From Parcubacteria group bacterium GW2011_GWA1_56_13 (lineage in GTDB: Bacteria; Patescibacteriota; Minisyncoccia; Phycocordibacterales; Phycocordibacteraceae), in the NCBI GenBank assembly GCA_001004905.1, contig LCRY01000002.1, positions 69,747 to 107,404 of the forward strand: DNA of 37,658 nucleotides. Reading direction: 5' to 3'. The stretch's first letter is position 1; each line of letters starts with the position of its first letter. A program made the translations under genes and the position numbers. Under the pieces are notes generated by a model, which had not been told where the DNA came from, ran no database searches, and saw only the letters and a program-made list of their open reading frames with translations. Shown piece by piece: positions 7,853-26,104 of the stretch.

Positions 7853-10800
7853 AACTGGATCTAATGACCCACTGGTCCAATTTGGGAGTTGGGGACTCAC
7901 AGATAACCATGCTGTAACACTGATGAACGGAGCTGGAGAATTAGATCTCTTTGTATCTGGGGCGAGCGACACCTTCATGCTCGGGACAACGCAGGGGGAT
8001 GTCGGAATGTTCTTTACTTCAGGTGACGATTTCCACCTAGGCAATAAGAACGCCTCGCCGTACGTGACTGTCAAAGACGGCGGCAACGTCGGCATCGGGA
8101 TATTAAGTCCCACGGCGCTATTAGATGTGAGTGCTGCAGCAGCGAGCACCGATATAGTGAGAATAAGAGCCGGTGGCGCTGGGATTTCATTAGGCACCAA
8201 CGCTTCCGGGTTCGGCCTCATAGGAAATACAGCATTTGGAAGTGTCATTACAATAGATACAAGCGGCAACGTCGGCATCGGCGATACCACGCCGAGCTAC
8301 AAACTGGAGGTTAACGGAGATTTTAATGCCACGGCTGTCTACTCAAACGGCGTCCTCCTTTCGCCGGGCACGGGTTCCAACTGGTCGGTAAGCGGCTCCG
8401 ACATCTATCGCTCGGCAGGAAACGTCGGCATCGGGACGACGAGTCCGCAAAGCTTACTGCATTTAAGCAGTTCAAGCATAGATGGTGTTCATTTTAGACT
8501 TGAAAGCGCAGATACCGGCGGAAACGTATGGGAAATCATTTCTACCGGTTCAAATAACGACGGCGGCGCTGGTAATTTGAGGTTCTATAACGGCATAACC
8601 GGAGTGGGGCCGGTATTTACAAGCACCGGCAACGTCGGCATCGGGACGACGAGTCCGCAAAGCCCGCTCCATATCGAGAACGGCAGTCCGCTCATCGTGA
8701 CTTTTGACAATGACGCCGCTATGTCTGCGTCACGGCCCGCATGGGCAGCAGGCGCGACGGGTGCGCTATATGAAATAGGTTCTATCACAAGCTATTCGGG
8801 GACTATAGTGAACGACGTTACGGCGCGCTTGGTAATCGATGCTTCCGGCCTCGTCGGCATCGGGACGTCGACGCCGGGGGCGAAGTTGGAAATTTATGAT
8901 GACACTTTTGGGGGCGCGACACCGCTCGCGGTCTACGGTAACTCGGACAACATTACCATTACGGATATTTCGACAAACAGACAAAACCAAGGTTCGTTAC
9001 TCTATATTTCTACGCCCAATGAGTTGAGCAACAGTAATAGCATTGGTATGTTCGGCGTCGGAGATGCCAGCGACACGGGGCAGAAAGGCAACTTGTTCCA
9101 CATTACGCAAACCGGCAACGTCGGCATCGGGACGACGACGCCAGGGCGAGCATTACATGTTCTTTCATCAGGAGATCAGGCAATATTTGAAGGCACGGGA
9201 AACGCAGGTGTGGATATTCGAGCACAAGGTGCTGAGGCCGGTAATTTAGCTTATCTTGACCTCGCGACTAACAGCACCGGTGTTGCCACCCCGGATTACA
9301 ACGTCCGCATCGCTGGCTACGAAGACAACAGCCTTAGAATTTATTCCAGCGACACAAATGAACGCATCCGAATGACAAGCGACGGCAACGTCGGCATCGG
9401 GACGACGAGTCCATGGTCTATAGCAACTAACTATGGAACTCTGGCTATCGGCGGGACTGACGGTGGGGGTCTTCGGTTTGGGAAAAATAACGGCGGTACA
9501 GCCCGATTCTATGCTGATGACGGAGGCATGTTCCTTCAGGTAGCAAGTACAACTCTTCCCATGGTATTTGCGACGGGAGGTAACGAACGCATACGTATTG
9601 ATAAAGACGGCAACGTCGGCATCGGGACGACAAGTCCTGCGGCACAAGGTTCCGGAGCATCGCCGCGCATTTTAGAGGTTTATGGCGGAAGTGATGTCGG
9701 GATGCTTAATCTTAGTAGTAGTGCCACCAGCGACGGTTCTTCTGCTGGTGCAGTGGCTTTTATCACGAGTGCCAGTCCATCTGCAGACAAGCGTCTTGGT
9801 CTTGTCGTCGGCGCAAACGACGGCAGTTCAGCGGCATCGACGAATGGACGGCTTACTTTCTGGACAAATAATGCAGGAACAATTGCCGAACGGATGAGAA
9901 TAGATAAAAGCGGCAACGTCGGCATCGGGACGACGGACACGAGCACCTATAAGGTGAACGTGAACGGTTCGCTCAACGCCACGGAGATCCGCGTGAACGG
10001 AGTAGTGCTAAATCCCGGCACCGGCTCCAACTGGACGGTGAGTGGCTCTGACATCTACCGCCTCGCCGGCAACGTCGGCATCGGCACGACGAGCCCGGCT
10101 AGCCTCCTTCATGTAAACGGTCCTGGAACGTTTACGCCTTTTGGCGGCTCTGATGCGCGCCAAGTCGTCATCACGACGCCCGGTGGGACCGATGGAGGTA
10201 TCGTTCTAAGTGCCAACTCGTCAGATGCGACGACGAGAGTGGATATTTCAAGAGTAAGCGGTGATTTGACATTCGCCCTCGGTTCAGGAACGGCCGAAAG
10301 AATGCGCATCACCTCTTCCGGCAACGTCGGCATCGGGACGACGACACCGTCGAATAAATTGACCATATATACCGGCAATATCGCGAACGCCAATGAGGGG
10401 ATATCGCTGACACGGGGCGCAGTCGGCGCGCCGCAGGACAATGTGTTCGGGATGCGCCTCAAGTCGGATGCTTCCGGGAATTACCGCGGAGCGTTCACGA
10501 TAACGAGCAATATCGGCAATCCCGAAACCGAGGCCTTGACGATCGGCACTGGCGGCAACGTCGGTATCGGGACGACGAGTCCGGAGACATTGCTCGATGT
10601 AAATAAAACCGTAGCAGGTGGAGAAGTGCAGCTGAGGGTAAAAAATCCTTCCAATTCTGCATCTGCAGCGGCCTCTGTAATAGTCGAAGTAGGCGGTTCG
10701 TCTGCGACGGGAGACGCCCGCTATGTAACTTCGGATGGGACTACCTACTGGGCATTTGGGCAAGATATAAGTGCATCAAATGCCTTTAAGATTTCTCAGA

Positions 10801-11303
10801 ATGCCGCGCTTGGCACAAACGACTTTTTGACAATTCTAACGAGCGGCAACGTCGGTATCGGGACGACGAGCCCGCAGGCTTTGTTGCATTTGAACAGTAC
10901 GGGGAACACGGTTTTAACAATAGAATCCGTTGGAGATAATAATCCTGCCATAAGATTCCGGTCAAACGACATTCAAAAGGCAGTTTTAGGTTATGACAAA
11001 GACATTGATGCTTTCAAAATATCTCACAGCGAATCGGGAACATCGTTCACAGACAATCAGTTGATTATAAAAAGCGGCAACGTCGGCATCGGCACGACGA
11101 CGCCGACCTCGTACGTCGGAGCAACGCGCGTACTGGACGTTTATAATGCGGTCGATACTTCTATTTCTATCGGCAAGGCGGGAAAGAATTACGAATTTTT
11201 CTTAGGCAGTGACAATGCTTTGACATTCCGCGATAGCACCGCGGGCGTAGTCCGAATGCTGATTTCCTCTTCCGGCCTCGTCGGCATCGGGACGACGAGT
11301 CCG
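5969..11303 (+). repeat. Dispersed in-frame ~30-bp repeat, consensus GGCAACGTCGGCATCGGGACGACGAGTCCG, ~23 copies
   Basis: Copies start near 5969, 6395, 6515, 6737, 6860, 7223, 7511, 7811, 8082, 8265, 8418, 8628, 8847, 9114, 9384, 9609, 9912, 10068, 10320, 10554, 10845, 11076, 11274. Confidence 0.9.
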
Positions 11304-13013
11304 GCCACCTTGCTTGAGGTAGGCGGCTCGACCAACAACATCACCTTCGACGGATACAAGAACTGCACGGGATACACCAGCAACAGCAACGGCCTCCTCG
11401 CCTGCACGGCTTCAGACCAGCGCCTAAAGCAGGACATCAGCCCGCTCGCGGGAGCGAGCGGGCTTGCGGCCATCGGCGCACTGAATCCCGTCTCCTTCTA
11501 TTGGAAACCCGCGGCCGAGCGCGGAACGAACGAGCAGTTCGGTCTCATCGCCCAGGATGTCCGGAACGTATTCCCGAATCTTGTTACCACCACGAACCCA
11601 ACTCCGCTTGCGCCCGACGGCACGCTCACCATCGACTACCAGGGCCTCATCGCCCCGATGGTCCTCGCGATACAGCAGTTGGATGCGCGGACAAAATTCA
11701 TCGTGAGCGCCGCATCGTCCACCGCGCTTACGGTCGGCAACGCGGGCGACATCGGCGTCGGAACGTCGATCGCCGGCATCTCCGCCAAGTTCTCCGTCTC
11801 GGGAAATGTCTTCGCGACTTCATATGAGACCGCCAATATTCCCGCAACGTCCTTTACGCTCGGCAGCACGAATTCGACAAGCTCACCGCAAGCGACCTTC
11901 ACGGCGCAGATACCGAGCGCGGTTCTGACCGCGCTCGGTTCTGTGGACCTGTACAAACTCGCGACGTATAACCTTTCGGGCATTTCCGCGCTCGCGCTCG
12001 CGCTTGAAGAACAAGAAGCACGCATCACCTCTCTTGAGTCACGCGTCGCGGCGCTCGAGAACGGGACCATCACTTCGACCAGCGGCACGACATCTCTTTC
12101 CACCACCTCGCTCACTGACGCGCTCAATACTCTCGGCGTGTTCATTAAGAGCGGCTTCGCCCAGTTCGGCACGCTCGTCGCCGACCGATTCGTCGCCGCC
12201 GCCGATTCCGCCGGCACCGCCTCTGCCGGCACGGTTACCATCCTCGCGGGCAATACCGTCGCGCAGGTCAACAACGCGTACGTGACGCCGGCAACCAAAG
12301 TATTCATAACGTTCACCGCTCCGGTTACGGGCTCCTGGTACATCAACGACAAAAAAGCAGGTTCGTTCAAAGTGGTGCTCGCAAACGCGCAAACGACGGA
12401 CGCCTCATTCGATTACTTCCTCGTGCAGACCGAGGGGCAGATGGCGACCACCACGACGACTATCTCCGGACCGAGCGTGGAATTGAGCGGCGGCACTACC
12501 GCCACTTCGCAAACTACGACCACCTCGACTACGCTCACTGCAGGCACGACGGACACGTCAACCACTACCGCAACCTCGACTGTAGGAACGACCGGTCCTA
12601 CGGCAACGACAACTCCCTCCTCGAGCGACACCATCGCACCAGTGGTCACGCTCAACGGCGACGCCGCCATGCAGATAACGGTGGGCGACACCTTCACCGA
12701 CCCCGGCGCCACCGCCTCCGACCCTCCGACTGATAGCTCGGAGCAGGCGACCGACCTCACGGCACATATAACTGTATCGGGTGCGGTTAATACCGCCACC
12801 GCAGGGCTCTACACCCTGACCTACTCCGCCACCGACGCGGCGGGGAATACCGGCTCCGCCTCCCGCGTCGTGACGGTGGCCGCCCCCGCAACTTCGACAA
12901 GCTCACCGCAGGCAAGCTCGCCATCTGACGGCACTACCACGACCACCATCGACACAACCACCTCTTCGACCGACACGACCTCCGCCCCTCCAGTCGACAC
13001 CACCTCTCCATAA
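7839..13013 (+). CDS. Giant surface/fibre protein, C-terminal part (15 GNVGIGTT modules, peptidase S74 intramolecular chaperone, coiled coil, DUF5011-like Ig, Thr-rich tail)
   Basis: SDQRLKQDI...LNPVSFYWK...GLIAQDV...IDYQGLIAPMVLAIQQL (S74). DTIAPVVTLNGD...FTDPGATASD...GLYTLTYSATDAAGN (Ig-like). It continues the upstream ORF in another frame, so TTG 7839 is probably not a true start. Confidence 0.85.
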   Translation: MDVYKTGSNDPLVQFGSWGLTDNHAVTLMNGAGELDLFVSGASDTFMLGTTQGDVGMFFTSGDDFHLGNKNASPYVTVKDGGNVGIGILSPTALLDVSAAAASTDIVRIRAGGAGISLGTNASGFGLIGNTAFGSVITIDTSGNVGIGDTTPSYKLEVNGDFNATAVYSNGVLLSPGTGSNWSVSGSDIYRSAGNVGIGTTSPQSLLHLSSSSIDGVHFRLESADTGGNVWEIISTGSNNDGGAGNLRFYNGITGVGPVFTSTGNVGIGTTSPQSPLHIENGSPLIVTFDNDAAMSASRPAWAAGATGALYEIGSITSYSGTIVNDVTARLVIDASGLVGIGTSTPGAKLEIYDDTFGGATPLAVYGNSDNITITDISTNRQNQGSLLYISTPNELSNSNSIGMFGVGDASDTGQKGNLFHITQTGNVGIGTTTPGRALHVLSSGDQAIFEGTGNAGVDIRAQGAEAGNLAYLDLATNSTGVATPDYNVRIAGYEDNSLRIYSSDTNERIRMTSDGNVGIGTTSPWSIATNYGTLAIGGTDGGGLRFGKNNGGTARFYADDGGMFLQVASTTLPMVFATGGNERIRIDKDGNVGIGTTSPAAQGSGASPRILEVYGGSDVGMLNLSSSATSDGSSAGAVAFITSASPSADKRLGLVVGANDGSSAASTNGRLTFWTNNAGTIAERMRIDKSGNVGIGTTDTSTYKVNVNGSLNATEIRVNGVVLNPGTGSNWTVSGSDIYRLAGNVGIGTTSPASLLHVNGPGTFTPFGGSDARQVVITTPGGTDGGIVLSANSSDATTRVDISRVSGDLTFALGSGTAERMRITSSGNVGIGTTTPSNKLTIYTGNIANANEGISLTRGAVGAPQDNVFGMRLKSDASGNYRGAFTITSNIGNPETEALTIGTGGNVGIGTTSPETLLDVNKTVAGGEVQLRVKNPSNSASAAASVIVEVGGSSATGDARYVTSDGTTYWAFGQDISASNAFKISQNAALGTNDFLTILTSGNVGIGTTSPQALLHLNSTGNTVLTIESVGDNNPAIRFRSNDIQKAVLGYDKDIDAFKISHSESGTSFTDNQLIIKSGNVGIGTTTPTSYVGATRVLDVYNAVDTSISIGKAGKNYEFFLGSDNALTFRDSTAGVVRMLISSSGLVGIGTTSPATLLEVGGSTNNITFDGYKNCTGYTSNSNGLLACTASDQRLKQDISPLAGASGLAAIGALNPVSFYWKPAAERGTNEQFGLIAQDVRNVFPNLVTTTNPTPLAPDGTLTIDYQGLIAPMVLAIQQLDARTKFIVSAASSTALTVGNAGDIGVGTSIAGISAKFSVSGNVFATSYETANIPATSFTLGSTNSTSSPQATFTAQIPSAVLTALGSVDLYKLATYNLSGISALALALEEQEARITSLESRVAALENGTITSTSGTTSLSTTSLTDALNTLGVFIKSGFAQFGTLVADRFVAAADSAGTASAGTVTILAGNTVAQVNNAYVTPATKVFITFTAPVTGSWYINDKKAGSFKVVLANAQTTDASFDYFLVQTEGQMATTTTTISGPSVELSGGTTATSQTTTTSTTLTAGTTDTSTTTATSTVGTTGPTATTTPSSSDTIAPVVTLNGDAAMQITVGDTFTDPGATASDPPTDSSEQATDLTAHITVSGAVNTATAGLYTLTYSATDAAGNTGSASRVVTVAAPATSTSSPQASSPSDGTTTTTIDTTTSSTDTTSAPPVDTTSP

Positions 13014-13044: not shown

Positions 13045-13250
13045 ATTGTCAACTGAGTGGTATAAAATGCAGTTATGGGCACGAGGAAAAAAGCTTTTAC
13101 AAACGGAGAATTCTTTCATATTTACAACAGAGGCGTTGATAAGCGCACTATCTTCAGCGACGGTCATGACCAACACAGATTTTTCACAAGCATGATCGAA
13201 TTCAATACCATAGATCCGATAGGAAGCTTGTATGAGAACTCCTTTCACCA

Positions 13251-13273
13251 ACTTGGCGGTGAGACCGCCAAGT
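13251..13273. repeat. REP-like palindrome copy 2, inside the transposase CDS (ACTTGGCGGT-GAG-ACCGCCAAGT)
   Basis: 10-bp arms; translated as QLGGETAKS. Confidence 0.9.
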
Positions 13274-13524
13274 CAGAAGAACGATTGGTCAATATCATTG
13301 CTTTTTGTCTGAATCCAAATCATTTTCATTTTATTCTGGAACAATTAACGGATAGGGGTATCAGTGAATTTATGAGGAGATTGAGCGGTGGATATACCTG
13401 GTATTTCAATAATAAATATGAAAGAAGCGGTTCTTTATTTCAGGGCGTATTTAAAGATGTACATATCGATTCCAATGAGTACTTGCTCCATCTCAGCGCC
13501 TATGTGAACTTAAATGATCGGGCC

Positions 13525-13557
13525 CACCAACTTGGCGGTCTCACCGCCAAGTTGGTG
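13525..13557. repeat. REP-like palindrome copy 3, inside the transposase CDS (CACCAACTTGGCGGT-CTC-ACCGCCAAGTTGGTG)
   Basis: 15-bp arms; translated as HQLGGLTAKLV. Confidence 0.9.
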
Positions 13558-13735
13558 AGCAGTAAGTCGAGTTGGGAAGAATATACAAATGGAGGAAACG
13601 AGGGAATTTGTGAAAAAGAAATTGTCCTAGGTCAATTCAAGAACACGGGCGAGTATAAGAAATTTGCACTCGATTCTCTCGATGCGATTATACGGAGAAA
13701 AGCAGAGCCAAAAGAGCTTGATATATATTTGGAAT

Positions 13736-13766
13736 AGTCACTTGGCGGTGAGACCGCCAAGTGACT
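13736..13766. repeat. REP-like palindrome copy 4 (AGTCACTTGGCGGT-GAG-ACCGCCAAGTGACT)
   Basis: 14-bp arms, overlapping the transposase stop codon. Confidence 0.9.
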
Positions 13767-17021: not shown

Positions 17022-18003
17022 TCCGGACGCGCACCTCCACGAGAAGCTGTTCACGGACGAGCTTCCGAAGGCGGCGACGCGCGACGGATTCGGCAAGGGA
17101 GCCGTCGAGGCGGGGACGGCGGACGCGCGCGTCGTCGTCTTATGTGCCGACCTCAAAGAATCCACGCGCGCGGAAGAATTCGAGAAGGCATTTCCCGAGC
17201 GCTTCGTCGAACTGGGCGTTGCGGAGCAGAATATGGCGGCGGTCGCCGCCGGCATGGCGCTCGCGGGGAAAATCCCGTTCATCGCGAGCTACGCGGTATT
17301 CAGTCCGGGGCGCAATTACGAGCAGATCCGCACGACCATCGCGCTGAACGAAGTGCCGGTCAAGATATGCGGCATGCATGCGGGCGTTTCTGTCGGGCCG
17401 GACGGCGCCACCCACCAGATGCTGGAGGATATCGGCATGATGCGGATGCTTCCGGGAATGACGGTCATCGCGCCCGGGGATGCGGAAGAAGCGAGAAAGG
17501 CGGTCGTAGCGGCGGCCCGTCTGGAAAAGCCCGTATATCTGCGTTTCGGGCGTTCGGCGACGTCAGCATTCACGACGGAGGAAACGCCGTTTGCGGTCGG
17601 CAAAGCGCTCGCGCTCTGGAACTCCGATGCCCCGAAAGCGGCACTACTCTCAACCGGTTCGTTGAGCTATGAGGCCCTGCTCGCGGTGCACGCGCTTGAG
17701 AAAGAAGGAGTGGAGACCCTCGTTCTTCATGTACCGACGATAAAACCGCTCGATACAGAGGCGATATTGGACGCGGCACAACGGGCGGGCCGCGTCATTA
17801 CGGTCGAAGAGCATCAGGCCATGGGCGGTTTCGGGAGCGCTGTGGCGGAATTCCTCGCGGAACACCACCCGGTGCCCGTCCGCCGGCTCGGCATCAGGGA
17901 CCAGTTCGGCCAATCAGGTGCTCCGGAGCAGCTTTTGGAACACTATGGGCTTGATGCGAGCGCCATCGTCAATGCCGTCAAGCATCTCATCGGTGGCCTA
18001 TGA
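17014..18003 (+). CDS. Transketolase, C-terminal subunit
   Basis: ATRDGFG, GVAEQNM, GPDGATHQMLED, PVYLRFGR, TVEEHQAMGGFGSAV. Confidence 0.95.
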   Translation: MLNPDAHLHEKLFTDELPKAATRDGFGKGAVEAGTADARVVVLCADLKESTRAEEFEKAFPERFVELGVAEQNMAAVAAGMALAGKIPFIASYAVFSPGRNYEQIRTTIALNEVPVKICGMHAGVSVGPDGATHQMLEDIGMMRMLPGMTVIAPGDAEEARKAVVAAARLEKPVYLRFGRSATSAFTTEETPFAVGKALALWNSDAPKAALLSTGSLSYEALLAVHALEKEGVETLVLHVPTIKPLDTEAILDAAQRAGRVITVEEHQAMGGFGSAVAEFLAEHHPVPVRRLGIRDQFGQSGAPEQLLEHYGLDASAIVNAVKHLIGGL

Positions 18004-18058
18004 GTTTTAAATGCACAAGCTGCGAGGCAAGCCGGACGGACCGTTGCGGTAAACGCGT

Positions 18059-18223
18059 ATGAAAGAAAAAATAAACTCCTATTTCGCGGTACTGCTCATA
18101 ACCATCGCGGGCGCGGGCGCGGCGCTTCTCATCGTCCATGTCGCGTACGACAACGCGTTGGCGAACTTCGGCGGAAGGGAAGCGGCCTACGCGCCGCTTC
18201 AAGAATCGATCCTGGGGCAGTGA
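18059..18223 (+). CDS. Small single-TM hypothetical protein, 54 aa (below the ORF-track cutoff)
   Basis: MKEKINSYFAVLLITIAGAGAALLIVHVAYDNALANFGGREAAYAPLQESILGQ; its stop abuts the stop of the convergent pfkB gene. Confidence 0.65.
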   Translation: MKEKINSYFAVLLITIAGAGAALLIVHVAYDNALANFGGREAAYAPLQESILGQ

Positions 18224-19101
18224 TCAGAACGACTCGACCCGGTACGCTGTCGGCGCTTCCGCGAGAAATTTCTCAAGCGCATCGCGGGTGAGAAGACCTT
18301 TTTGCGCGCCGACATGCTGAACGACCGACATGGCATTCACCGGTCCCCACGCGAGTGCCTCGGCAAGCGGCTTGCCGAGAGCAAGCGCGACGACGACGGT
18401 AGAAGTCATCGCGTCGCCGGCACCAGTACGGTTCTTCGGCGGCGTCGGGTCGGGGTACATCGGCACTTTGAGCATTTGCTCGCCGTCGAACGCGTACGCC
18501 CCGTTCGGGCCGTCGGTGAGGAGCGCTATCTTCGGGCCGAGCGCGCGCATGTCCCGCAAGAGTTCTTGTATGTCGCTTTCACCTGCCTTCGCAGGCAGGC
18601 CGACCCCGAGTATGCGCTCGGCCTCTTCTTTATTTACGGCGACGAGTTCGGCTGCGGCATAAAGCTCCGCCAATTTTTCTTTACCCATTTTTATCTGGAA
18701 CGTGCCGGGCTGGAATGCGAGTTTCGTTTCCGGGTGTTTACGAAGCCACTCCGCAAGTTCGGCATGGAATGCCTCCGTGTGCTCGGCGACGGAGGACAGG
18801 TACATCCATTTCGGCGGCGTGATATTTTCCGGAACGCGGTACGGGTACGCTTCATGTCGGACCAGGATGGTGCGCTCGGCGTCGTAGCAGAGCACGTAAT
18901 GATGATTGGTCGGGATGCCGTCATTAACGGCGACGTATTCCGTGTTGACGCCTTCTTTCGCGAAGGTGGCGAGGATTTCCTCGCCGAAGCGGTCCCTGCC
19001 GACATTTGAAATGAAACCGGCCGACAGACCGAGGCGGGCGGCGGCGACCGCCGCATTTGAAACTCGTCGACGACCGTGTCGCCGATGGCAATAAAGTCCA
19101 T
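18224..19101 (-). pseudogene. PfkB/ribokinase-family carbohydrate kinase with a 5' deletion and frameshift (or assembly error)
   Basis: The N-terminus MDFIAIGDTVVDEF (ATG 19101) is out of frame with SNAAVAAARLGL...VNKEEA...TDGPNGA...RTGAGDA. Junction at ~19060. Confidence 0.85.
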
Positions 19102-19124
19102 GCGTAAAGTGTAACATGGCGCAC

Positions 19125-19230
19125 CGCGCGGCAGTGCATTTTTTCGGTACGACCGTCGTTTCCTGCTGGAAACACGTCTCGCTCTCGGGCCGTCGCTCTG
19201 CGAGAGCCCGAAAAAATGCACTGCCGCGCG
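19125..19230 (-). repeat. Fold-back element A (23-bp perfect terminal inverted repeats, structured core)
   Basis: CGCGCGGCAGTGCATTTTTTCGG ... CCGAAAAAATGCACTGCCGCGCG. Inner hairpins GTTTCC-TGCT-GGAAAC and TCTCGC...GCGAGA. Confidence 0.85.
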
Positions 19231-19239
19231 AGAGCGGAA

Positions 19240-19335
19240 CAGAGCGGATATTTTGCGAACGTGCGCAAGCGCGACGGCGCGAGCCAGAGCAAATTTTCAG
19301 CGGAAAATTATGCGGTTCGCAAAATATCCGCTCTG
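19240..19335 (+). repeat. Fold-back element B (21-bp perfect terminal inverted repeats, 54-nt core)
   Basis: CAGAGCGGATATTTTGCGAAC ... GTTCGCAAAATATCCGCTCTG; core almost identical to that of 24136-24233. Confidence 0.9.
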
Positions 19336-19358
19336 TGAAGCCATGGTACTATTTTTAT

Positions 19359-20354
19359 ATGACCGATCTTGTCGCGGTAGCGCGCTCGCTTTTTGGAGAA
19401 GGCAAAGGGCTCTTGGCCGCCGATGAGAGCGTGCATACCGCGACGACGCGCCTCGCAAGCTTTGGCATCCCTGCGGGTGCGGAGATGCGCCGGCAGTTCC
19501 GCGAGCTCTTTATCGGCGCGGAGGGCATCGAACGATATCTCTCGGGCGTCATCCTCTTTCCCGAGTCGCTTACCGAAAAGGGAGATGACAAAAAGCCGTT
19601 CCCGAAATCGCTCGCCACGCGCGGCATCCTGCCGGGCGTGAAAGTTGACCTCGGCCTGGAGCCCATTGCCGCGAGCCCGCAGGAATTCATTACGAACGGG
19701 CTCATCGGCCTTCCGGAGCGTCTCGCGGAATACAAAAAGCAAGGGGCGGTGTTCAGCAAATGGCGCGCGGCGTTCCGTATTGACGGCGATACACTGCCGT
19801 CAGCCGAGGCGATGCATGAGAACGCGAAGCGCCTCGCGAGCTACGCGAAAGAGGCGCAGACGGCGGGTCTCGTGCCGATACTTGAGCCAGAAGTGCTCTA
19901 TGAGGGAACGCATAGTCGGCAAAGGTCTCGTGCGGCCATGGCGCAGGTATTCCAAATCCTTTTTTCGGTGCTCGACGAGCATGCGGTCGATTGCGCGGGT
20001 ATGGTTCTCAAGACCTCCATGGCGCTCTCGGGGAACGACAGCGGCAAGCGCGACACGCCGGAGGAAGTCGCGCTTGATACGCTGGGTTCGCTCTTGGAGC
20101 ACGTGCCGAGGCAGATCGCGGGGGTCATGTTCCTTTCCGGCGGACAAACCCCGGATCAAGCGACGGAAAATCTCGCCGCGATAAGCGGCAGGGCAAAGGA
20201 AATAGACGCTCCATGGCCACTCACGTTCTCGTACGCGCGCGCCTTGCAGGAAGAGGCACTCGCCCTCTGGAAAGGGAAAGAAGAGAACGTGTCCGCCGCC
20301 CGCGAAGCATTTCTTGCCCGCCTCGCCAAGGTGTCCGCGACCCTAAGCGCCTAG
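19359..20354 (+). CDS. Class I fructose-bisphosphate aldolase (Glycolytic family)
   Basis: GKGLLAADES, PGVKVDLG, FSKWRA, GLVPILEPEV, VLKTSM, FLSGGQT, WPLTFSYARALQ. ATG 19359 lies 6 nt after TGGTACTAT. Confidence 0.93.
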   Translation: MTDLVAVARSLFGEGKGLLAADESVHTATTRLASFGIPAGAEMRRQFRELFIGAEGIERYLSGVILFPESLTEKGDDKKPFPKSLATRGILPGVKVDLGLEPIAASPQEFITNGLIGLPERLAEYKKQGAVFSKWRAAFRIDGDTLPSAEAMHENAKRLASYAKEAQTAGLVPILEPEVLYEGTHSRQRSRAAMAQVFQILFSVLDEHAVDCAGMVLKTSMALSGNDSGKRDTPEEVALDTLGSLLEHVPRQIAGVMFLSGGQTPDQATENLAAISGRAKEIDAPWPLTFSYARALQEEALALWKGKEENVSAAREAFLARLAKVSATLSA

Positions 20355-20398
20355 GGAAGAATTGCGTTTTATGCCGGGTTCCGCTATATTCAGGTCCT

Positions 20399-21014
20399 AT
20401 GCTTACACTCGCGGTTGAAAAGCGTCCGGAAAGCGCAAAGGCGCCGGCGTTGCGCCGCGCCGGGATAGTCCCCGGCGTTGTGTATGGCGCGCATTATGCG
20501 GCGATGCCGATATCAGTCCAAGCAAGCGCCTTTGAAAAAGTGCTCCGCGAGGCGGGAGAGGCGGCTATCGTTTCGCTGTCCGGGCTCGGCGCACGTTGAT
20601 TTCTACGCGGTAACCAAGGGGGAGAAAGTCGAGGTGGCCATCCCGCTCGTGTTCGTTGGAGAATCGTCGGCGGTAGAAGCAGGGGCGAACTTGGTAAAAG
20701 TGTTGTACGAGCTCGAGGTCGAGGCGGATCCGATGAATTTGCCGCCGCACATCGAGGTGGACGTCTCTGTGCTCGCCGCGCTCGGCGACCGCATCCAGGC
20801 CAAGGACCTGCCGCTCCCGAAGGGAGTCACCCTCATGTCCGAACCCGAGGACGTCGTGGCGCTCGTTCAGGAGGTCGTGGAAGAGAAAGTGGAGGAAGTC
20901 GCCGCACCAGCGGATATCGCTTCGATCGAGGTCGAGAAGAAAGGCAAAGAAGAAGCCGCCGCGGAAGGAGCCGCGGCCGCTCCTGCGCCCGAAGAAAAGC
21001 CAGCCAAAGCATAA
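20399..21014 (+). pseudogene. rplY: 50S ribosomal protein bL25/Ctc with an internal deletion and frameshift (or assembly error)
   Basis: MLTLAVEKR...LRRAGIVPGVVYG...SLSGLG in one frame, HVDFYAV...VEVAIPLVFVGES...LPPHIEVDVS in another. The segment normally preceding HVDF is missing. Junction at ~20591. Confidence 0.88.
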
Positions 21015-21096
21015 GTGGCTGCCAGGCGGCGGCTACTTTTTGCCATACCACCACGCCAATTTCAGGATGAAATGGGCGTGGTGGTATACTTTCGAC

Positions 21097-22458
21097 ATGG
21101 TTCGGAGGGCCTTCATAGCTTGTATGTTCCTTACTGCCGCCTTCGGCGGCGTTTTGGCCCTGTCGAGCGCCGCGGCGGCCCAAGATCTCACGCCAGCTGA
21201 ACGTGCTGCGCTTCAGGCCCAATACGACCAACTCCAAAAGGAAATCGAGGCGCAGCAGAAGATCATCAAGGAGACGCAAGCAAAGAAAAACACTTTGCAG
21301 GGCGACGTTACACTGCTGAATGCGCAGATCAAGGCGGCACAGTCGCAGATTGACGCGAAAAATATCGTCATCAAACAGCTCGCCGCGCAGATAGCGAAAA
21401 AGAGCGCGGTTATCGGACAGCTCTCGGACCGCATCGAGCGCGGGAAGGAATCTCTCGGTTCGATCCTGCGCCAGACGCAAATGCTGGATGATTACTCGGT
21501 CGTAAGCGTGGCCCTCGGCGCGCAGAACGTCTCCGAATTTTTCGGCGACCTCGACGCTTTCGTTTCTCTCAAGACCGACCTGCGTGATCTGTTCGCCGAC
21601 ATTCGCGCAGCGAAAGCGCAAACCGAGACCGAGAAAGCCGAATTGGCGCTGAGGCAGAACCAGACCGCGGATGCGAAATACGAAGTGGAAACGCAGCAGA
21701 AACAGATTGCAAGCAATAAAACACAGAAACAGCAGCTACTCGCCATAACCACGAACCAGGAGGCCCAATATCAGAAAGTGCTTGCGGAACGGCAGGCAAA
21801 GGCCGCCGCGATACGTGCCGCCCTGTTCCCCCTGCGCGATGCGAGCGCCATTTCATTCGGAACGGCTCTGCAGTATGCGCAACAAGCGCAACGACTGACC
21901 GGCGTCGACCCAGCGCTCGCGCTCGCCATCCTGACCCAGGAGTCGAACCTCGGCGCGAATGTCGGGCAGTGTTATCTCACGAACGACGCGACGGGCGCCG
22001 GCGTAGGGAAGAATTCGGGCACGCCGTTCGCAAAGGTCATGGCACCGATACGCGACGTGCCCCCGTTCCTTGCTCTGGCAAGCCGGCTCGGATTCGATCC
22101 GCACCGACAGGTCGTTTCGTGCCCGATATTGAGCGCCGGGGGATGGGGAGGCGCTATGGGACCAGCTCAATTCATCCCTTCTACATGGGCGCTGTACGCC
22201 GGCCGCGTCGCGAGCGCGAACGGAGTGCCGATCGCCAATCCCTGGGATCCGAAGGATGCCATCATAGCCATGTCATTCCTTCTTGCCGACAATGGCGCGA
22301 GCACAGGGGGCTTTACGGCGGAATTCACCGCGGCGGCCCGCTATTACGCCGGCTGGGGCGGCGCCGCGACCACGGCAGGCAAGACCTATGCGACTCAAGT
22401 CATGAACACCGTAAAAAACGTCATACGGCCGAACATCGATTTCCTTTCGAATACTTAG
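21097..22458 (+). CDS. Secreted coiled-coil protein with a C-terminal lytic murein transglycosylase (SLT_2/MltB-like) domain
   Basis: Signal peptide, long Gln/Lys coiled coil, AILTQESNLG, GAMGPAQFIPSTW, NPWDPKDAI. ATG 21097 follows TGGTATACT. Confidence 0.88.
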   Translation: MVRRAFIACMFLTAAFGGVLALSSAAAAQDLTPAERAALQAQYDQLQKEIEAQQKIIKETQAKKNTLQGDVTLLNAQIKAAQSQIDAKNIVIKQLAAQIAKKSAVIGQLSDRIERGKESLGSILRQTQMLDDYSVVSVALGAQNVSEFFGDLDAFVSLKTDLRDLFADIRAAKAQTETEKAELALRQNQTADAKYEVETQQKQIASNKTQKQQLLAITTNQEAQYQKVLAERQAKAAAIRAALFPLRDASAISFGTALQYAQQAQRLTGVDPALALAILTQESNLGANVGQCYLTNDATGAGVGKNSGTPFAKVMAPIRDVPPFLALASRLGFDPHRQVVSCPILSAGGWGGAMGPAQFIPSTWALYAGRVASANGVPIANPWDPKDAIIAMSFLLADNGASTGGFTAEFTAAARYYAGWGGAATTAGKTYATQVMNTVKNVIRPNIDFLSNT

Positions 22459-22567
22459 TGTCGTTTGGTAAAAAGAAGCTCCTCACGTCGTTGTCCACTG
22501 TCGGCAGGATCCGGGAAATTCCCGCGGCGGCCGTACGGTACAATAAACGGCATCCTAACTAACCATT

Positions 22568-23153
22568 ATGCAAAAAAGAGACCTGCTTTCATCGGTTGTT
22601 TCTAAGCTTCCTGGTATTCTCGTTCTCGTCGTCGCTTTCGCCTCGGTCGCCTTCGCCTGGACCGGCCCCACCGGCACCGCACCCTCCAACAACACGCCCC
22701 CGCCGATAAACACGAGCGCCACGGCACAGACGAAGGCGGGAGGTATCAATTTTCAGAACTACGCCCACTTCACCGGCTACGGCACCGATTCCTGGTTACC
22801 TGCGCGGCCCGCTCTACTTTAACAGCGCCCTCTACGACGAAAACAACGCCGGCTACTACCTCGACCCGAACGGCACGAGCCGGATGGGCCAGGTGAACGC
22901 CGACAACACCTATACATACGGAAACGAGAACGCGAACGACTACTATATCCGCGCTTCGGGGAAATGGGCGAGCCAGCTCGGGGGCGGCGTGTCGAGTGTC
23001 GGCTTAAGCTGCTATGATGCGGCAGCTTCCTGCTGGCCCGGGAGCGGCACTAAGACTGACCGCTATTGCCAGGTGTGCGTTAACGGCGTCTGCTCCGGAT
23101 ACACCAATACGGGTAGCATACGGGATGCTTGCGACTACGGCGGATGGTACTGA
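22568..23153 (+). pseudogene. Secreted/anchored adhesin-like protein, frameshifted by a small deletion
   Basis: Signal/TM, then WTGPTGTAPSNNTPPPIN and ...GYGTDSWLP. It continues in another frame as YLRGPLYFNSALYDENNAGYYLDPNGTSRM...DYYIRASGKWASQL plus a Cys-rich tail. The two frames share TTACC at 22796-22800. Confidence 0.7.
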
Positions 23154-23175
23154 TTTTAAAAAGTAACTTTATATC

Positions 23176-23736
23176 ATGGAACAAACGTCACGTATGCCAA
23201 AAATATTAACCGTCATTCTCATCGCCGTCATAGCAGGCGGAGCCGGATGGTGGGCGGGATATTCGCAGGCGCTCGGTTTCGCGAAAGAACGCCTCGCAGG
23301 ATATCAAGTGGTCCCGCTCCCTCCCGACTCTAAAAACTTAACAGGCACCATCGAGCGTATTGATGGCGGCATGATATACGTGCGAACGCTCTTCGTAAAC
23401 CCGCTTGAAAAAGACGGGGCGAACATGGTTGCTCTGGCAACCACCGCCTCGACGACCATCGAGAAATTCGTACTGAAAGATTCCAAATCTTTTGAAACGG
23501 AAATGACGGCCTTCGCCAAAGCGGCGCAGAAAAACGCGGTCGCGCCTGTGCCCCCCGAACCGTTCACTCGGCAGGCAATACTTCTCTCCGATTTGAAGCC
23601 CGGTGAGTCAGTGTCCGTCACCACCGCCGAAAATGTCGTGGGCGCAGCGCGTCTTACGGCGACCTCGATATCTGCTACCTCGCTTATTGCCAGCTTGCCC
23701 GCCGGGCCGCAAACCTCGACCGGCAGTGCGCAATGA
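23176..23736 (+). CDS. Membrane-anchored hypothetical protein (possible OB-fold; [12 protein letters not shown] motif)
   Basis: N-terminal [12 protein letters not shown] and [11 protein letters not shown] patterns. Confidence 0.7.
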
Positions 23737-23833
23737 AACGCGCTTGTTTCCTCCTCCCCAGTCCCCGATTCGGTCGTCGTCAATAATCCCGCCGGTCTTC
23801 CAGGAATGGCGGGTCCGTGCTATCATCCGCGGG

Positions 23834-24082
23834 ATGAAAAAAGATATCCATCCGGCGGATTACCGCCCGGTCGTCTTTAAAGACCTCGCCTCGGGCGCGG
23901 AATTTCTCATTGGCTCGACCATCGCGACCACCGAAACGACGAAATTCGAGGGCAAAGAGTATCCGAAAGTGACCGTCGAAATATCGAGTAAGTCCCATCC
24001 GTTCTATACCGGAGAAGAGCGTACGCTTGATAAGGCCGGCCGCGTCGAGCGTTTCAAACAGCGCGCCGCAAAGAAAAAGTAG
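23834..24082 (+). CDS. rpmE: 50S ribosomal protein bL31, zinc-free type
   Basis: [40 protein letters not shown]; no Cys. Confidence 0.96.
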
Positions 24083-24135
24083 GGCGGCTCAACGGGCGGG
24101 GTGTTTTCGGGGCACGGAATATTTTCCTGCTGGAA

Positions 24136-24233
24136 GCAGGACAGATATTTTGCGGACGTGCGCAAGCGCGACGGCGCGAGCCAGAGCAAATTTTCAGCAG
24201 AAAATTATGCGGTCCGCAAAATATCTGTCCTGC
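24136..24233 (+). repeat. Fold-back element C (22-bp perfect terminal inverted repeats; same family as B)
   Basis: GCAGGACAGATATTTTGCGGAC ... GTCCGCAAAATATCTGTCCTGC; core 53/54 identical to B. Confidence 0.9.
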
Positions 24234-24263
24234 GGAGCATCTTATTTCGTGCTTTACTTACGC

Positions 24264-24420
24264 TATGGAATACTCTCCAGAATTTAAGAAGAATTTCGCG
24301 ACCCCGGTACCACAGCCGCGCGGACGCGGCTGGCTACGGGGCGGGACTCGGCATATCGTACGATAATCTTTACATGAGCGTATGGAATACTCTCCAGAAT
24401 TTAAGAAGAATTTCGCGACC
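24264..24420 (+). repeat. 40-bp perfect direct repeat of the prfA 5' end flanking a 77-bp hairpin-containing insert
   Basis: TATGGAATACTCTCCAGAATTTAAGAAGAATTTCGCGACC at 24264-24303 and 24381-24420. Confidence 0.92.
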
Positions 24421-25335
24421 GCGTACCTTGCGGAGGAATACGAACGCCTGGAAAAGGATATAACGGATGCGGTGCACGCCGCGGCCGCCGATGCCGAGCT
24501 GAAGCTCATGGCGGAGGAAGACGCTGCCCGGCTCCGGGAGCGCCAAGCCACCATCCTCGCCGAGATAGAACAGATACTCGCGAAGGAAAAAGAAGAAGTG
24601 GCCAAGCCGGTCTCGGTGGTGATGGAATTGCGCGCCGGCGCGGGCGGCGACGAGGCGGCCATCTTCGCGCGCGACTTGAAGGAGATGTACCAGAAATACG
24701 CCGAACGGCACGGATGGAAGACCCGTTTAATAGACGACCTCACGATCGAAATAGCGGGCTCGGGCGCCTACGAGGCGCTCCGCTATGAGACCGGCGTCCA
24801 CCGCGTCCAGCGAGTGCCGCTCACCGAGAAATCGGGCCGCATCCACACTTCGACCGCCTCCATCGCCGTCCTGCCTATCCGCAGCAAATCGAAGATAGAG
24901 ATACAACCCGCCGACATAGAGATGGAATTTTCGCGCAGCGGCGGCGCGGGCGGACAGAACGTGAACAAGGTCGAAACGGCTGTGCGGCTCATCCACAAGC
25001 CGACCGGCATTGACGTGCGCTCCTCCTCCGAGCGTAGCCAGAAAGCGAACCGCGATAAGGCCCTCCAGATCCTCTCCGCGAAGCTCGAACAGCTCCATGA
25101 ACAAGAAGAGGCGAAAAAACACGCGGCACAGCGCAAGGCGCAAATAGGCACCGCCGACCGCTCCGAAAAGATACGCACCTATAACTATCTGCAGGACCGC
25201 GTTACCGACCACCGGCTCAAGGAATCGTGGCACAACCTCCCCAAGATACTGGCGGGGAACATCGACGACATCGTGGACGCGCTTCATGCCGCCGCAGCCG
25301 GCGCCGGTCTCGGCGCGGCATCGGAAGACGAATGA
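24382..25335 (+). CDS. prfA: Peptide chain release factor 1
   Basis: [28 protein letters not shown] (PxT motif marks RF1), [28 protein letters not shown]; follows rpmE. Confidence 0.96.
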
Positions 25336-25405
25336 TAGTCGCGAGGGGCATGCGCCTCGCTCTTTGCTTGCATTCAAGGCCGTTTTCAAGTAAAGTGGCC
25401 CGATA

Positions 25406-26104
25406 ATGGCCAGCAATGCCAACACGGCAGACGTGAAGCGCCTCTTTGACACAGGGGCGCATTTCGCGCAGGTAAAGAGCCGTCGGCACCCTTCGATGAA
25501 GCCATTCCTCGTGGGAGCGAAAGGGAGGCAGGAGATCATCGACCTGGCGAAGACCGGCGAGCAGATAGAAGCGGCGAAAACCGTCATGGCCGCGCTCGCG
25601 AAAGAAGGAAAAACGGTCCTTTTTGTGGGAGGGAAAGTGGAGATCGCCGGACTCGTGAAGAATGCCGCGCAGGCGATCGGCGCGCCGTACGTGGCAACGC
25701 GCTGGCTTGGCGGTACCATTTCCAACTGGAGCGAGATAAAGAAGCGCATCGACCGGCTCACGGAACTTTCCGAAAAGACGGCGGCAGGCACGCTCGCTAA
25801 ACAGCATACCAAGCTCGAGCTCGTGAAGCTCGACCGCGAGAAAAAGCGCCTTCTCGGGCGTCTTGACGGTATCACTACGCTCACCAAGCGACCCGACGCT
25901 CTTCTGGTCGTGGACACCAGGCACGAGAAGCATGCGGTGAAAGAAGCGAACGACGCGGGTATTCCCATCATCGCCATCATGAGCTCGGATTGCAATCTTT
26001 CAGATGCGGCGTACCCGATAGTCGCGAATGATACATCCCGAAAAACAGTGGAGCTCATACTCACCGGCCTCACCGAGGCGTTCGCGAAAGGGCAGGCCGC
26101 ATAG
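25406..26104 (+). CDS. rpsB: 30S ribosomal protein uS2
   Basis: GAHF...HPSMKPF, IIDL, RWLGGTISNW, PDALLVVD, AVKEA, PIVAND. Confidence 0.96.
   Translation: MASNANTADVKRLFDTGAHFAQVKSRRHPSMKPFLVGAKGRQEIIDLAKTGEQIEAAKTVMAALAKEGKTVLFVGGKVEIAGLVKNAAQAIGAPYVATRWLGGTISNWSEIKKRIDRLTELSEKTAAGTLAKQHTKLELVKLDREKKRLLGRLDGITTLTKRPDALLVVDTRHEKHAVKEANDAGIPIIAIMSSDCNLSDAAYPIVANDTSRKTVELILTGLTEAFAKGQAA

What the first reader, a model, noticed from the sequence alone, without database searches (positions are those of the whole stretch)
19125..19335. Back-to-back pair of ~100-nt fold-back elements from one divergent family between divergent promoters
Seen: A (23-bp perfect arms) and B (21-bp perfect arms) are 9 nt apart and have different arm sequences. 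The reverse complement of A still shares the core motifs of B in the same order: AG(A/C)GCGACGGC(C/G)CGAG, then the hairpin TTT(C/T)C-AGC(A/G)-G(G/A)AAA. Arms vary freely while inner motifs persist, the opposite of classical MITEs, where the TIRs are the conserved part. Inference: a structured ssDNA or RNA element recognised through its core, such as a non-autonomous HUH substrate, an attC-like folded site or an undescribed ncRNA.
Basis: partly seen in the sequence, partly recalled or inferred. Interest (0 to 1): 0.75.

Follow-up and report, generated by a model that had tools for sequence, protein, structure and literature searches.

The report
Palindromic insertion elements in tiny bacteria
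The two adjacent hairpins are real, diverged copies of a small Y-folding palindromic DNA element that has spread through the genomes of ultra-small (CPR/Patescibacteria) bacteria, even in frame inside essential genes, much as the palindromic elements of Rickettsia do.

Summary
Observation confirmed. A (19125-19230, minus polarity, 23-bp perfect arms) and B (19239-19336, 22-bp arms, not 21) lie 8 nt apart (not 9). C (24136-24233) is a third copy. A profile built only from 28 copies in other genomes finds A, B and C at E 7e-14 to 1e-19.

The genome holds 11 copies. 26 of 41 related genomes have matches, and a core pattern occurs in over 117 public records, nearly all labelled Patescibacteria. 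No Rfam family matches. The fold is a three-way junction: a free-sequence outer stem and two small hairpins with fixed loops (GACG, AGCA). Covariation is strong (91% of cells paired against 61% in shuffles; 37 of 38 pairs change on both sides).

Copies are present or absent at orthologous sites. Two sit in frame in dnaE and one in prmC, and copies cluster in pairs. I read this as a non-autonomous, RPE-like mobile element recognised through its core as a folded single strand. The enzyme is unknown. Five HUH/Y1 paralogs are the only transposase-type genes found of the five families searched, and their link to the element is weak.

The arms are not free: they are homologous and evolve by compensated changes. 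This scan had already found this family on other DNA of the same genome (e1-1046856, e1-1046857).

The parts
19125..19230 (-). Element A, 106 nt, family (B-type) polarity on the minus strand. Arms 19125-19147 and 19208-19230. P2 core motif about 19184-19199. P3 hairpin about 19152-19178.
   Evidence: R1 E 8.7e-22; foreign-copy HMM E 6.7e-14. Copies at the same kinase/aldolase spacer in G007 and G010.
19239..19336 (+). Element B, 98 nt. Arms 19239-19260 and 19315-19336. P2 hairpin GCGC-GACG-GCGC at 19269-19280 followed by GAG. P3 hairpin with AGCG loop at 19289-19313.
   Evidence: E 4.1e-20; E 1.5e-16. No second CM match in the G007 or G010 locus, and their spacers leave no room for a B-like copy.
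19231..19238 (.). 8-nt spacer AGAGCGGA between A and B. Its letters recur as the first 8 letters after AC in B's left arm.
   Evidence: Read. Flank statistics.
24136..24233 (+). Element C, 98 nt, closest relative of B (87 of 98 identical; the five arm differences are all compensated transitions).
   Evidence: (E 7.0e-21).
24094..24135 (-). Remnant (P3 half) of an older copy of opposite polarity, directly upstream of C. G017 and G005 hold full copies of that polarity at this locus.
   Evidence: nhmmer E 5.1e-4, model positions 57-87. Synteny (L021, L043).
18224..19117 (-). pfkB-family kinase ORF left of A. The real start, ATG at 19101 (MDFIAIGDTVVDEF), is in another frame. About 125 nt are missing compared with G007 and G010, so the gene looks broken.
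   Evidence: (PF00294, match starts at profile position 41).
19360..20354 (+). Class-I fructose-bisphosphate aldolase gene right of B (ATG at 19360, or 19344).
   Evidence: PF00274, E 1.8e-99.
13075..13737 (+). One of five Y1_Tnp (HUH, RAYT-like) paralogs of the genome. A candidate trans-acting enzyme, not shown to be linked.

Best explanation
A and B are two diverged copies of a family of about 95-105-nt non-autonomous palindromic insertion elements. The family is widespread in Paceibacteria-type CPR bacteria. It behaves like the Rickettsia palindromic elements: many copies per small genome, in intergenic spacers and in frame inside genes.

One strand (the polarity of B) folds into a Y. P1 is a long outer stem whose sequence is free but whose pairing is kept. 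P2 is a 4-bp covarying stem with a GACG loop, flanked by AG and GAG. P3 has an AGCA-type loop on a T/A-rich stem.

Shown: family membership, the fold with covariation, presence/absence at orthologous sites, coding insertions and clustering.

Inferred: the element moves as a folded single strand that a trans-acting enzyme recognises by the core. The most likely enzyme is one of the genome's Y1/HUH paralogs. The alternative is its single tyrosine recombinase.

Inferred history here: A is old, since G007 and G010 hold a copy at the same spacer. B is a later insertion, a close relative of C, placed right beside A in the spacer upstream of the two divergent genes. The 'variable arms, constant core' pattern comes from different constraint: pairing only in P1, sequence in the core.

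The confidence given is for the mobile-element reading. For the HUH enzyme alone I give about 0.35.
For: Family:
- The R1 model finds 11 places in the 704-kb genome.
- It has matches in 26 of 41 genomes searched: own, 14 of 24 of the same genus, 11 of 16 other families of the order. Counts run from 0 to 17 per genome.
- A 23-base core pattern gives more than 117 stretches in public genomes, nearly all titled Patescibacteria, Parcubacteria, Paceibacterota, Kaiser-, Adler-, Nomura- or Yonathbacteria.
- An HMM built from foreign copies finds A, B and C.

Structure:
- 91.4% of cells are paired against 61.3% in shuffles. 37 of 38 pairs change on both sides. The covariation score is 0.684 against 0.182 (0 of 500 shuffles reach it). 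Slid controls give 0.08-0.12.
- G:T/T:G 83 against A:C/C:A 20.
- Same-locus pairs keep their pairing: L018/L019 show 6 compensated and 0 lost pairs, E/L044 show 4 and 1, G031/G037 show 17 and 4.

Mobility:
- F and G lie in frame in dnaE, adding about 83 residues that most relatives lack. G005 has a CM hit in the same loop.
- E lies in frame in prmC. G014 has two copies there and G024 has one.
- Sites filled in G005/G014 and in G012 are empty in G000.
- No B-like copy is seen in G007 or G010.

Clustering:
- Two adjacent pairs among 11 copies. The chance of two or more is 0.0002 over the whole genome, or 0.02 if copies are confined to 70 kb.
- Other pairs or triplets occur in G014 and G037.
- C abuts a remnant of an older copy.

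Enzymes:
- 5 Y1_Tnp and 1 tyrosine recombinase.
- 0 hits to DDE_3, rve, DDE_Tnp_1 or the TnpB zinc-ribbon domain.
Against: - No autonomous partner or consistently linked gene was found.
- Y1 genes and elements co-occur loosely: both 22, element only 4, Y1 only 7 (G001 has 10 Y1 matches and no element), neither 8, of 41 genomes. These genomes are kin and are not independent.
- Only E lies within 1 kb of a Y1 gene, and no Y1 gene is flanked by copies.
- The Y1 proteins score 34 and 27.6 bits against a cut-off of 80 for the RAYT model.
- No empty allele or excision joint was seen in the four metagenome runs laid. No recent movement is therefore shown.
- Same-locus copies in different species keep their pairing through many compensated changes. 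A dead selfish copy need not do that. This points to selection on each copy, or to a repair bias that re-perfects palindromes.
- Flanking direct repeats are weak: 5 nt or more in 3 of 34 copies against 0.23 expected, and none in 18 of 34. A GAGCGA-type repeat would fit a DDE-type duplication as well as an HUH cleavage word.
- The covariation counts were made on an alignment fitted to the model.
Confidence: 0.8

Rival explanations
1. Folded single-strand recombination site. The element works like an integron attC site or the CTX-phage attP hairpin. Its stem forms a duplex site that the host's single tyrosine recombinase recombines with a matching genomic site.
For: A second branch of the family (type II: H, I, L038, L039 and others) shares the P2/P3 core and sits just 3' of tRNA genes in the same orientation: 4 copies in my loci and 7 of 33 in public records, against 0 of 47 for type I. 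In H, I, L039, L155 and L197 the right arm of P1 duplicates 11-19 nt of that tRNA's 3' end, and the left arm is its complement. In L161, L196, L216 and L038 a 7-nt CACAAAG/C word at the tRNA end is duplicated the same way. A direct repeat of the target around the insert is the classic mark of integrase action. The genome has one tyrosine recombinase.
Against: For type I, the kind A and B belong to, the test fails. In 49 copies the longest right-arm copy upstream averages 5.5 nt against 5.1 in the control, and 8 nt or more occurs once in each. P1 sequences differ between copies, so one recombinase could not read them as a fixed site. There are no conserved R-box-like ends. No integron integrase was sought or seen.
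Confidence: 0.15
2. Structured non-coding RNA or cis-regulatory RNA transcribed from each copy.
For: Strong covariation and a three-way junction with fixed loops. Wobble pairs favour one polarity. Type II copies follow tRNA genes in the tRNA's orientation and could be co-transcribed.
Against: Type I copies lie in both orientations to their neighbours. Of 20 intergenic copies, 10 are opposite to both flanking genes, 5 are the same as both and 5 are in other arrangements (crude ORF heuristic). F is antisense and G is sense inside dnaE. Copies are gained and lost between close species, with 0-17 per genome. A and B lie upstream of TGnTAnnnT words placed a few bases before the start codons, so they are probably not in the mRNAs (inference). 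No Rfam match.
Confidence: 0.07
3. Host-serving DNA site: a binding site for a nucleoid, replication or transcription protein. It would be kept by selection at each locus and spread secondarily, as proposed for REP/BIME or ERIC-type repeats.
For: Same-locus copies in different species, and even in different families of the order (G031/G037), keep the fold through 4 to 17 compensated pairs. The kinase/aldolase spacer holds a copy in three genomes, exactly between the two start regions.
Against: 15 of 41 related genomes have no match at all. Copies inside dnaE and prmC loops are hard to see as regulatory sites. Sites are empty in close relatives with no evident replacement. A template-switch repair bias that perfects quasi-palindromes could keep the pairing without any function (established knowledge, recalled, not tested here).
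Confidence: 0.1

Closest known systems
Rickettsia palindromic elements (RPE-1 to RPE-10; Ogata et al. 2000 and 2002, as summarised in passages of PMC10969869 that I read)
   Same: Both are short palindromic repeats in a reduced genome, with many copies, no transposase of their own, and frequent in-frame insertion into unrelated and even essential genes.
   Different: Different phylum, and no sequence relation was tested. This family is about 100 nt, against about 150 bp stated for RPEs. It has a Y-shaped core with two fixed hairpin loops and strong covariation across a whole order. A sister branch duplicates tRNA 3' ends. The review describes RPEs by a conserved encoded peptide. Here the conservation is in the nucleic-acid structure.
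REP/REPIN elements with RAYT (REP-associated tyrosine transposase; NCBIfam NF047646; GTAG/CGTC-tagged REPs, PMC3733652, search listing and abstract start only)
   Same: Hairpin-forming repeats thought to be handled as single strands by a Y1/HUH enzyme. The genome carries Y1_Tnp paralogs. A CGTC word is present (complement of the GACG loop).
   Different: In REPINs the arms (the REPs) are the conserved part and the loop varies. Here it is the reverse. The CGTC word is in a loop, not at the hairpin foot. No Y1 gene is flanked by copies. The proteins are far below the RAYT cut-off (34 against 80 bits).
Classical bacterial MITEs (Correia, ERIC, RUP and others; review PMC10969869)
   Same: Size, non-autonomy, intergenic and occasional intragenic copies, patchy distribution between close genomes.
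   Different: No conserved terminal inverted repeats, no clear target duplication, and no related full-length IS in the genome.
Integron attC sites and CTX-phage folded attP (recalled, not read here)
   Same: The idea of a site recognised as a folded single strand by structure more than by sequence. The type II branch shows target duplication at tRNA ends.
   Different: attC has conserved R boxes at its ends, imperfect pairing with extrahelical bases, and sits in cassettes next to intI. None of this is seen for A or B.

Membership tests
This CPR palindromic element family (as defined by models R1/R2 and the foreign-copy HMM) | P1 outer stem plus P2 (AG, 4-bp stem, GACG loop, GAG) plus P3 (AGCA-type loop), in that order | tested here: met
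   A, B and C score E 6.7e-14, 1.5e-16 and 1.4e-19 with an HMM built from 28 copies of other genomes. R1 E-values are 8.7e-22, 4.1e-20 and 7.0e-21.
Rickettsia palindromic elements (RPE) | Palindromic repeat inserted in frame in protein-coding genes | tested here: met
   F and G in dnaE (1,178-aa open frame). E in prmC. Relatives lack the inserts.
Rickettsia palindromic elements (RPE) | Sequence homology to RPE-1 to RPE-10 of Rickettsia | not tested
   No RPE sequence was at hand. The taxa are unrelated, so I claim likeness of behaviour only.
Classical MITE | Terminal inverted repeats conserved between copies | tested here: not met
   The outer roughly 10 bp of P1 show no conservation between copies. 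The first 12 modelled pairs all change on both sides.
Classical MITE | Target-site duplication of fixed length | tested here: inconclusive
   In 34 copies with arms of 12 bp or more, 18 have none. 5 nt or more occurs in 3 against 0.23 expected. 2 nt or more occurs in 10 against about 4.7 expected.
Classical MITE | Related autonomous IS with the same ends | tested here: not met
   No DDE_3, rve, DDE_Tnp_1 or TnpB zinc-ribbon hit in the own genome. The core-only hits in G037 belong to a roughly 200-nt repeat that shares no sequence, and so no conserved gene, beyond the repeat itself.
REP/REPIN-RAYT | Conserved REP arms with a GTAG or CGTC tag at the hairpin foot; variable loop | tested here: not met
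   The arms vary and the core is conserved. CGTC (complement of GACG) lies in the P2 loop.
REP/REPIN-RAYT | A RAYT gene, usually flanked by REPs | tested here: not met
   Five Y1_Tnp genes, at 34 and 27.6 bits against the cut-off of 80 for NF047646. None is flanked by a copy; the nearest is E, 824 nt from C2:148745 with an RRM gene between.
IS200/IS605-type non-autonomous element (PATE) | Single-strand hairpins bound by a Y1 HUH transposase; insertion 3' of a short fixed word; no duplication | tested here: inconclusive
   Wobble asymmetry favours one strand. The left flank ends in A in 20 of 34 copies, and GAGCGA-type words flank some copies. The enzyme link is weak.
Integron attC | R''/L''...L'/R' boxes (conserved ends), extrahelical bases, neighbouring intI | tested here: not met
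   Perfect 22-23-bp arms without conserved end words. The one tyrosine recombinase is on another contig.
Any Rfam 15 family | Score at or above the family's gathering threshold | tested here: not met
   The best match at B is MIR6297 at 28.5 bits against a threshold of 114. In nine further loci only tRNAs pass.

The most novel reading that the evidence does not exclude
The conserved Y core is the handle of a minimal single-strand DNA insertion system of CPR bacteria. An HUH/Y1 enzyme, or the lone tyrosine recombinase, moves roughly 100-nt hairpins. In the tRNA-linked sister branch the outer stem is a target mimic: its left arm is complementary to the 7-19 nt of target that end up duplicated. 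Insertion sites there would be chosen by base pairing, with the stem as a natural programmable part. A and B would be members of a branch that has lost or relaxed that targeting.
Probability: 0.15. Interest if true: 0.85.

Novelty: new variant of a known kind. Interest (0 to 1): 0.6.

Why it matters
Genomes of 0.5-1 Mb under strong streamlining are not expected to tolerate selfish repeats. Yet this family reaches 17 matches per genome and sits inside dnaE and prmC. That makes CPR bacteria a second, independent case of the Rickettsia phenomenon of palindromes remodelling proteins.

The fixed core, with covariation across an order, marks a specific partner protein that is not yet known. Finding it would explain how these elements move. 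They apparently do so without any of the four other transposase families I searched for (DDE_3, rve, DDE_Tnp_1, TnpB zinc-ribbon domain).

The shared core also ties together two things this scan had noted separately in this genome: palindromes in genes and tRNA-tail insertion elements.

In practice, a covariance model of the family would help genome annotation. It would flag spurious ORFs, odd protein insertions and assembly breaks in CPR genomes assembled from metagenomes. The Logan contigs of all four runs laid break at these copies.

Tried and rejected
1. Arms derived from the target (inverted copy of the flank). For type I, no copy of the right arm lies upstream beyond the control: 49 copies, mean 5.5 against 5.1 nt. 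B and C share 17 of 22 arm positions, so arms travel with the element. Rejected for type I. It holds for part of type II.

2. Known RNA family. Rfam E-value scan of 18900-19600 and gathering scan of nine loci: nothing but tRNAs.

3. Expression. No RNA holder was listed for window 18700-19900, so nothing can be said.

4. Empty alleles within populations. Contigs of four metagenome runs were laid on 17500-25500. Contigs break at the repeats. One soil contig joins B to C (skips 4,897 nt), which may be repeat collapse. No precise excision joint was seen.

5. Canonical promoters or terminators at A/B and C. 0 promoter-like sites at A/B. One terminator-like site each, at the level the shuffles give.

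6. Clean boundaries from filled against empty intergenic sites. The flanks are too diverged to fix a duplication.

7. An autonomous partner via core-only hits in G037 and G017. These gave only a roughly 200-nt non-coding repeat and a larger multi-hairpin variant.

8. A solved-structure relative of the Y1 protein: 0 hits.

9. A phylum-wide draw with R2 gave 4 of 151 genomes, the own genome included. Only 27 candidates per genome were scored, so this undercounts.

10. Prior description. Four literature searches found no description of this family among the papers listed. Subscription papers and supplements were not seen.

11. One search failed on coordinates. I repeated it on a larger locus.

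Full report
**What is there**

The window is G000:C2:69747-107404, from a 704-kb, 7-contig genome of 56% G+C.

At 19125-19336 there are two perfect inverted repeats:
- A has arms 19125-19147 and 19208-19230 (23 nt, 60 nt between).
- B has arms 19239-19260 and 19315-19336 (22 nt, 54 nt between).
- 8 nt lie between A and B.

Each strand of each element folds far better than its shuffles (z -7.8 to -9.7, 0 of 200 shuffles).

A third copy, C, lies at 24136-24233.

To the left is a pfkB-family kinase ORF on the minus strand. To the right is a class-I fructose-bisphosphate aldolase gene on the plus strand.

**It is a family**

- A scan of the genome for perfect inverted repeats (at least 14 nt, spacer 20-150) lists 17. 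Five of them share this core: A, B, C, D and E.
- A covariance model from those five finds 11 places in the genome, A to K.
- The model has matches in 26 of 41 genomes searched: own, 14 of 24 others of the genus, and 11 of 16 other families of the order. Counts run from 0 to 17 per genome.
- An HMM built only from the 28 aligned copies of other genomes finds A (E 6.7e-14), B (1.5e-16) and C (1.4e-19) in the window. The A/B likeness is therefore not a chance pairing.
Of the 80 loci listed, nearly all are titled Patescibacteria or CPR lineages: Kaiser-, Adler-, Nomura-, Yonath- and Niyogibacteria, Paceibacterota, Parcubacteria. A few third-party labels name other phyla.
- A phylum-wide draw gave 4 of 151 genomes, the own genome included. 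Only 27 candidates per genome were scored.
- Rfam 15 has no match.
- Four literature searches found no description of the family among the papers listed.

**Anatomy**

The 40-row alignment fitted to the model shows a three-way junction:
- P1 is the long outer stem. Its outer 10 or so pairs have no conserved sequence. Its inner part is a moderately conserved GATTTTT.GGG / CCC.AAAAATC.
- P2 is a 4-bp stem of any sequence closing a GACG loop, preceded by AG and followed by GAG.
- P3 is a T/A-rich stem with an AGCA-type loop, followed by TA.YGC.

Counting pairs gives:

| Measure | Observed | Control |
|---|---|---|
| Cells paired | 91.4% | 61.3% in shuffles |
| Pairs changed on both sides | 37 of 38 | – |
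| Covariation score | 0.684 | 0.182 in shuffles (0 of 500 reach it) |
| Score with partners slid | – | 0.08-0.12 |

The caveat is that the alignment was fitted to this structure.

Wobble pairs are one-sided: G:T/T:G 83 against A:C/C:A 20 in B polarity (39 rows, after dropping one reverse-strand echo). This suggests that the strand of B polarity is the one whose fold matters.

**The arms**

They are not free. B and C differ at 11 of 98 positions. Ten of these are five compensated arm pairs, all transitions, and one is in the P3 loop. The arms are therefore inherited with the core and diverge faster.

Copies at the same locus in different species show the same regime (synteny, counts):

| Pair | Compensated pairs | Lost pairs |
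|---|---|---|
| L018/L019 (G005/G014) | 6 | 0 |
| E and its G014 counterpart, inside prmC | 4 | 1 |
| G017/G005 | 5 | 3 |
| G031/G037 (two families of the order) | 17 | 4 |

The 'variable arms, constant core' pattern thus reflects pairing-only constraint in P1 and sequence constraint in the core.

I also tested whether arms are copied from the target. For 49 type I copies, the right arm has no copy upstream beyond the control (mean 5.5 against 5.1 nt). I rejected that idea for this type.

**Mobility**

- F and G (C2:110409-110494 plus strand, 110532-110626 minus strand) lie inside the 1,178-aa dnaE frame, with no stop. In an alignment of 11 DnaE sequences, G000 has about 83 extra residues in one loop. 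G006, G017, G023 and G007 have none there. G005 has a model hit in the same loop.
- E lies in frame in the prmC linker. G014 has the counterpart of E plus a second copy. G024 has one copy there. Nine of 24 genus members have a short linker.
- Sites filled in G005/G014 and in G012 are empty in G000. At the first, the two genes overlap by ATGA in G000.
- A has counterparts in the same spacer, in the same orientation, in G007 and G010. No second model match is seen in those two loci, and their spacers leave no room for a B-like copy. B therefore looks like the later arrival.
- Comparing spacers suggests that B went into a roughly 15-nt spacer with a 2-nt GA repeat. This is an inference, not firm.
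- Copies cluster. A/B and F/G are two adjacent pairs among 11 copies. The chance of two or more such pairs is 0.0002 genome-wide, or 0.02 if copies are confined to 70 kb. G014 and G037 have further pairs and a triplet. C abuts a remnant of an older, oppositely oriented copy (24094-24135; E 5.1e-4).
- Within populations I saw no empty allele.

**Not an RNA gene, not attC**

By a crude ORF heuristic, 20 intergenic type I copies fall as follows: 10 opposite to both neighbours, 5 the same as both, and 5 in other arrangements. In dnaE, F is antisense and G is sense.

A and B lie upstream of TGnTAnnnT words that sit a few bases before the start codons. Words of the same pattern stand at the same spots in G007 and G010. 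The consensus scan calls no promoter there.

The ends carry no conserved attC-type boxes.

**The enzyme**

The genome has five Y1_Tnp (HUH) paralogs, one of them in the window at 13075-13737, and one tyrosine recombinase. It has no hit to DDE_3, rve, DDE_Tnp_1 or the TnpB zinc-ribbon domain.

That makes an HUH enzyme the leading candidate by elimination, and it fits a single-strand fold. But the link is weak:
- Over 41 genomes the table is: both 22, element only 4, Y1 only 7, neither 8. These genomes are kin.
- No Y1 gene is flanked by copies.
- The two Y1 paralogs scanned are far below the RAYT cut-off (34 and 27.6 against 80 bits).
- One of them, the paralog near E, has no solved relative by sequence.

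Flanks show a bias: the left flank ends in A in 20 of 34 copies, and the right flank starts with G in 16 of 34. GAGCGA-type direct repeats occur in 3 of 34 copies against 0.23 expected.

**A sister branch**

H, I, J and K, together with L038-L041, share P2/P3 but have a short P1 and a longer P3 base.
- H, I, L038 and L039 lie just 3' of tRNA genes, in the tRNA's orientation.
- In public records this holds for 7 of 33 such copies, against 0 of 47 type I copies.
- In several, the right arm duplicates the tRNA's 3' end (7-19 nt) and the left arm is its complement.

It keeps open a folded-site recombination mechanism.

**Relation to earlier notes**

This scan had already described D (e1-1046856) and E (e1-1046857) in this genome as an undescribed RPE-like family. 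My results agree.

They add:
- the A/B/C copies;
- the Y-core with its statistics;
- the in-situ compensated evolution;
- the clustering;
- the enzyme inventory;
- the shared core with the tRNA-linked elements.

**Verdict**

This is a real, ordinary-in-kind but undescribed family. It is an RPE-like palindromic mobile element with an unusually conserved structured core. Its mechanism is still open.

Noticed in passing
window 18224-19117 (minus strand), especially 19040-19101: The pfkB-family kinase looks broken. The start MDFIAIGDTVVDEF (ATG at 19101) is in another frame than the rest. About 125 nt (roughly 42 codons) present in G007 and G010 are missing.
   Followed up: partly
window 24265-24303 and 24381-24419: A 39-nt direct repeat duplicates the 5' end of the gene that starts at 24381, around a 77-nt filler. 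Summed depth of metagenome contigs spikes in the 24175-24441 bin and stays raised in several bins out to 25242. This suggests a widespread repeat or another small insertion.
   Followed up: no
G000:C2:306885-306979 (H), C4:43894-43974 (I), and loci L038, L039, L155, L197: A sister branch with the same P2/P3 core sits just behind tRNA genes. Its right stem arm duplicates the tRNA's 3' end and its left arm is the complement.
   Followed up: partly
prmC linker in G023, G001, G006, G007, G005 (loci L111, L124, L123, L119, L109): Alleles without the full element carry a short hairpin of 6-12-bp arms (ATGTAGGAC...GTCCTACAT type, with compensated changes) at the same spot. This may be a footprint, a reduced copy or another mini-palindrome family.
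   Followed up: no
G037 loci L138, L139, L141, L142: A roughly 200-nt non-coding repeat (at least 4 copies) contains the same P2/P3 core inside a larger conserved context, with an extra upstream hairpin.
   Followed up: partly
G000:C2:148745-149434 and window 13075-13737: The genome has five 220-240-aa Y1_Tnp (HUH, distantly RAYT-like) paralogs, and relatives have up to 10 matches. One lies 0.8 kb from E. The window's copy follows a 1,724-aa repetitive protein gene (7839-13013).
   Followed up: partly
G000 dnaE, about 30 residues downstream of the F/G insert (locus L046): A second insertion, seen only in G000 among the 11 aligned sequences, of 16 residues (IGTFGSADLSTSSPSF) that matches no family model.
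   Followed up: no
G000:C2:378357-378442: An 18-bp perfect inverted repeat whose arm reads like a tRNA T-arm/acceptor tail (TTCGAATCCCACCCTCTC). It lies next to a weak family hit at C2:378274-378331.
   Followed up: no
window 19258 to 24156 (run X5): One soil-metagenome contig joins the left part of B to the core of C, skipping 4,897 nt. This may be assembly collapse of the repeat or a B/C recombinant.
   Followed up: no
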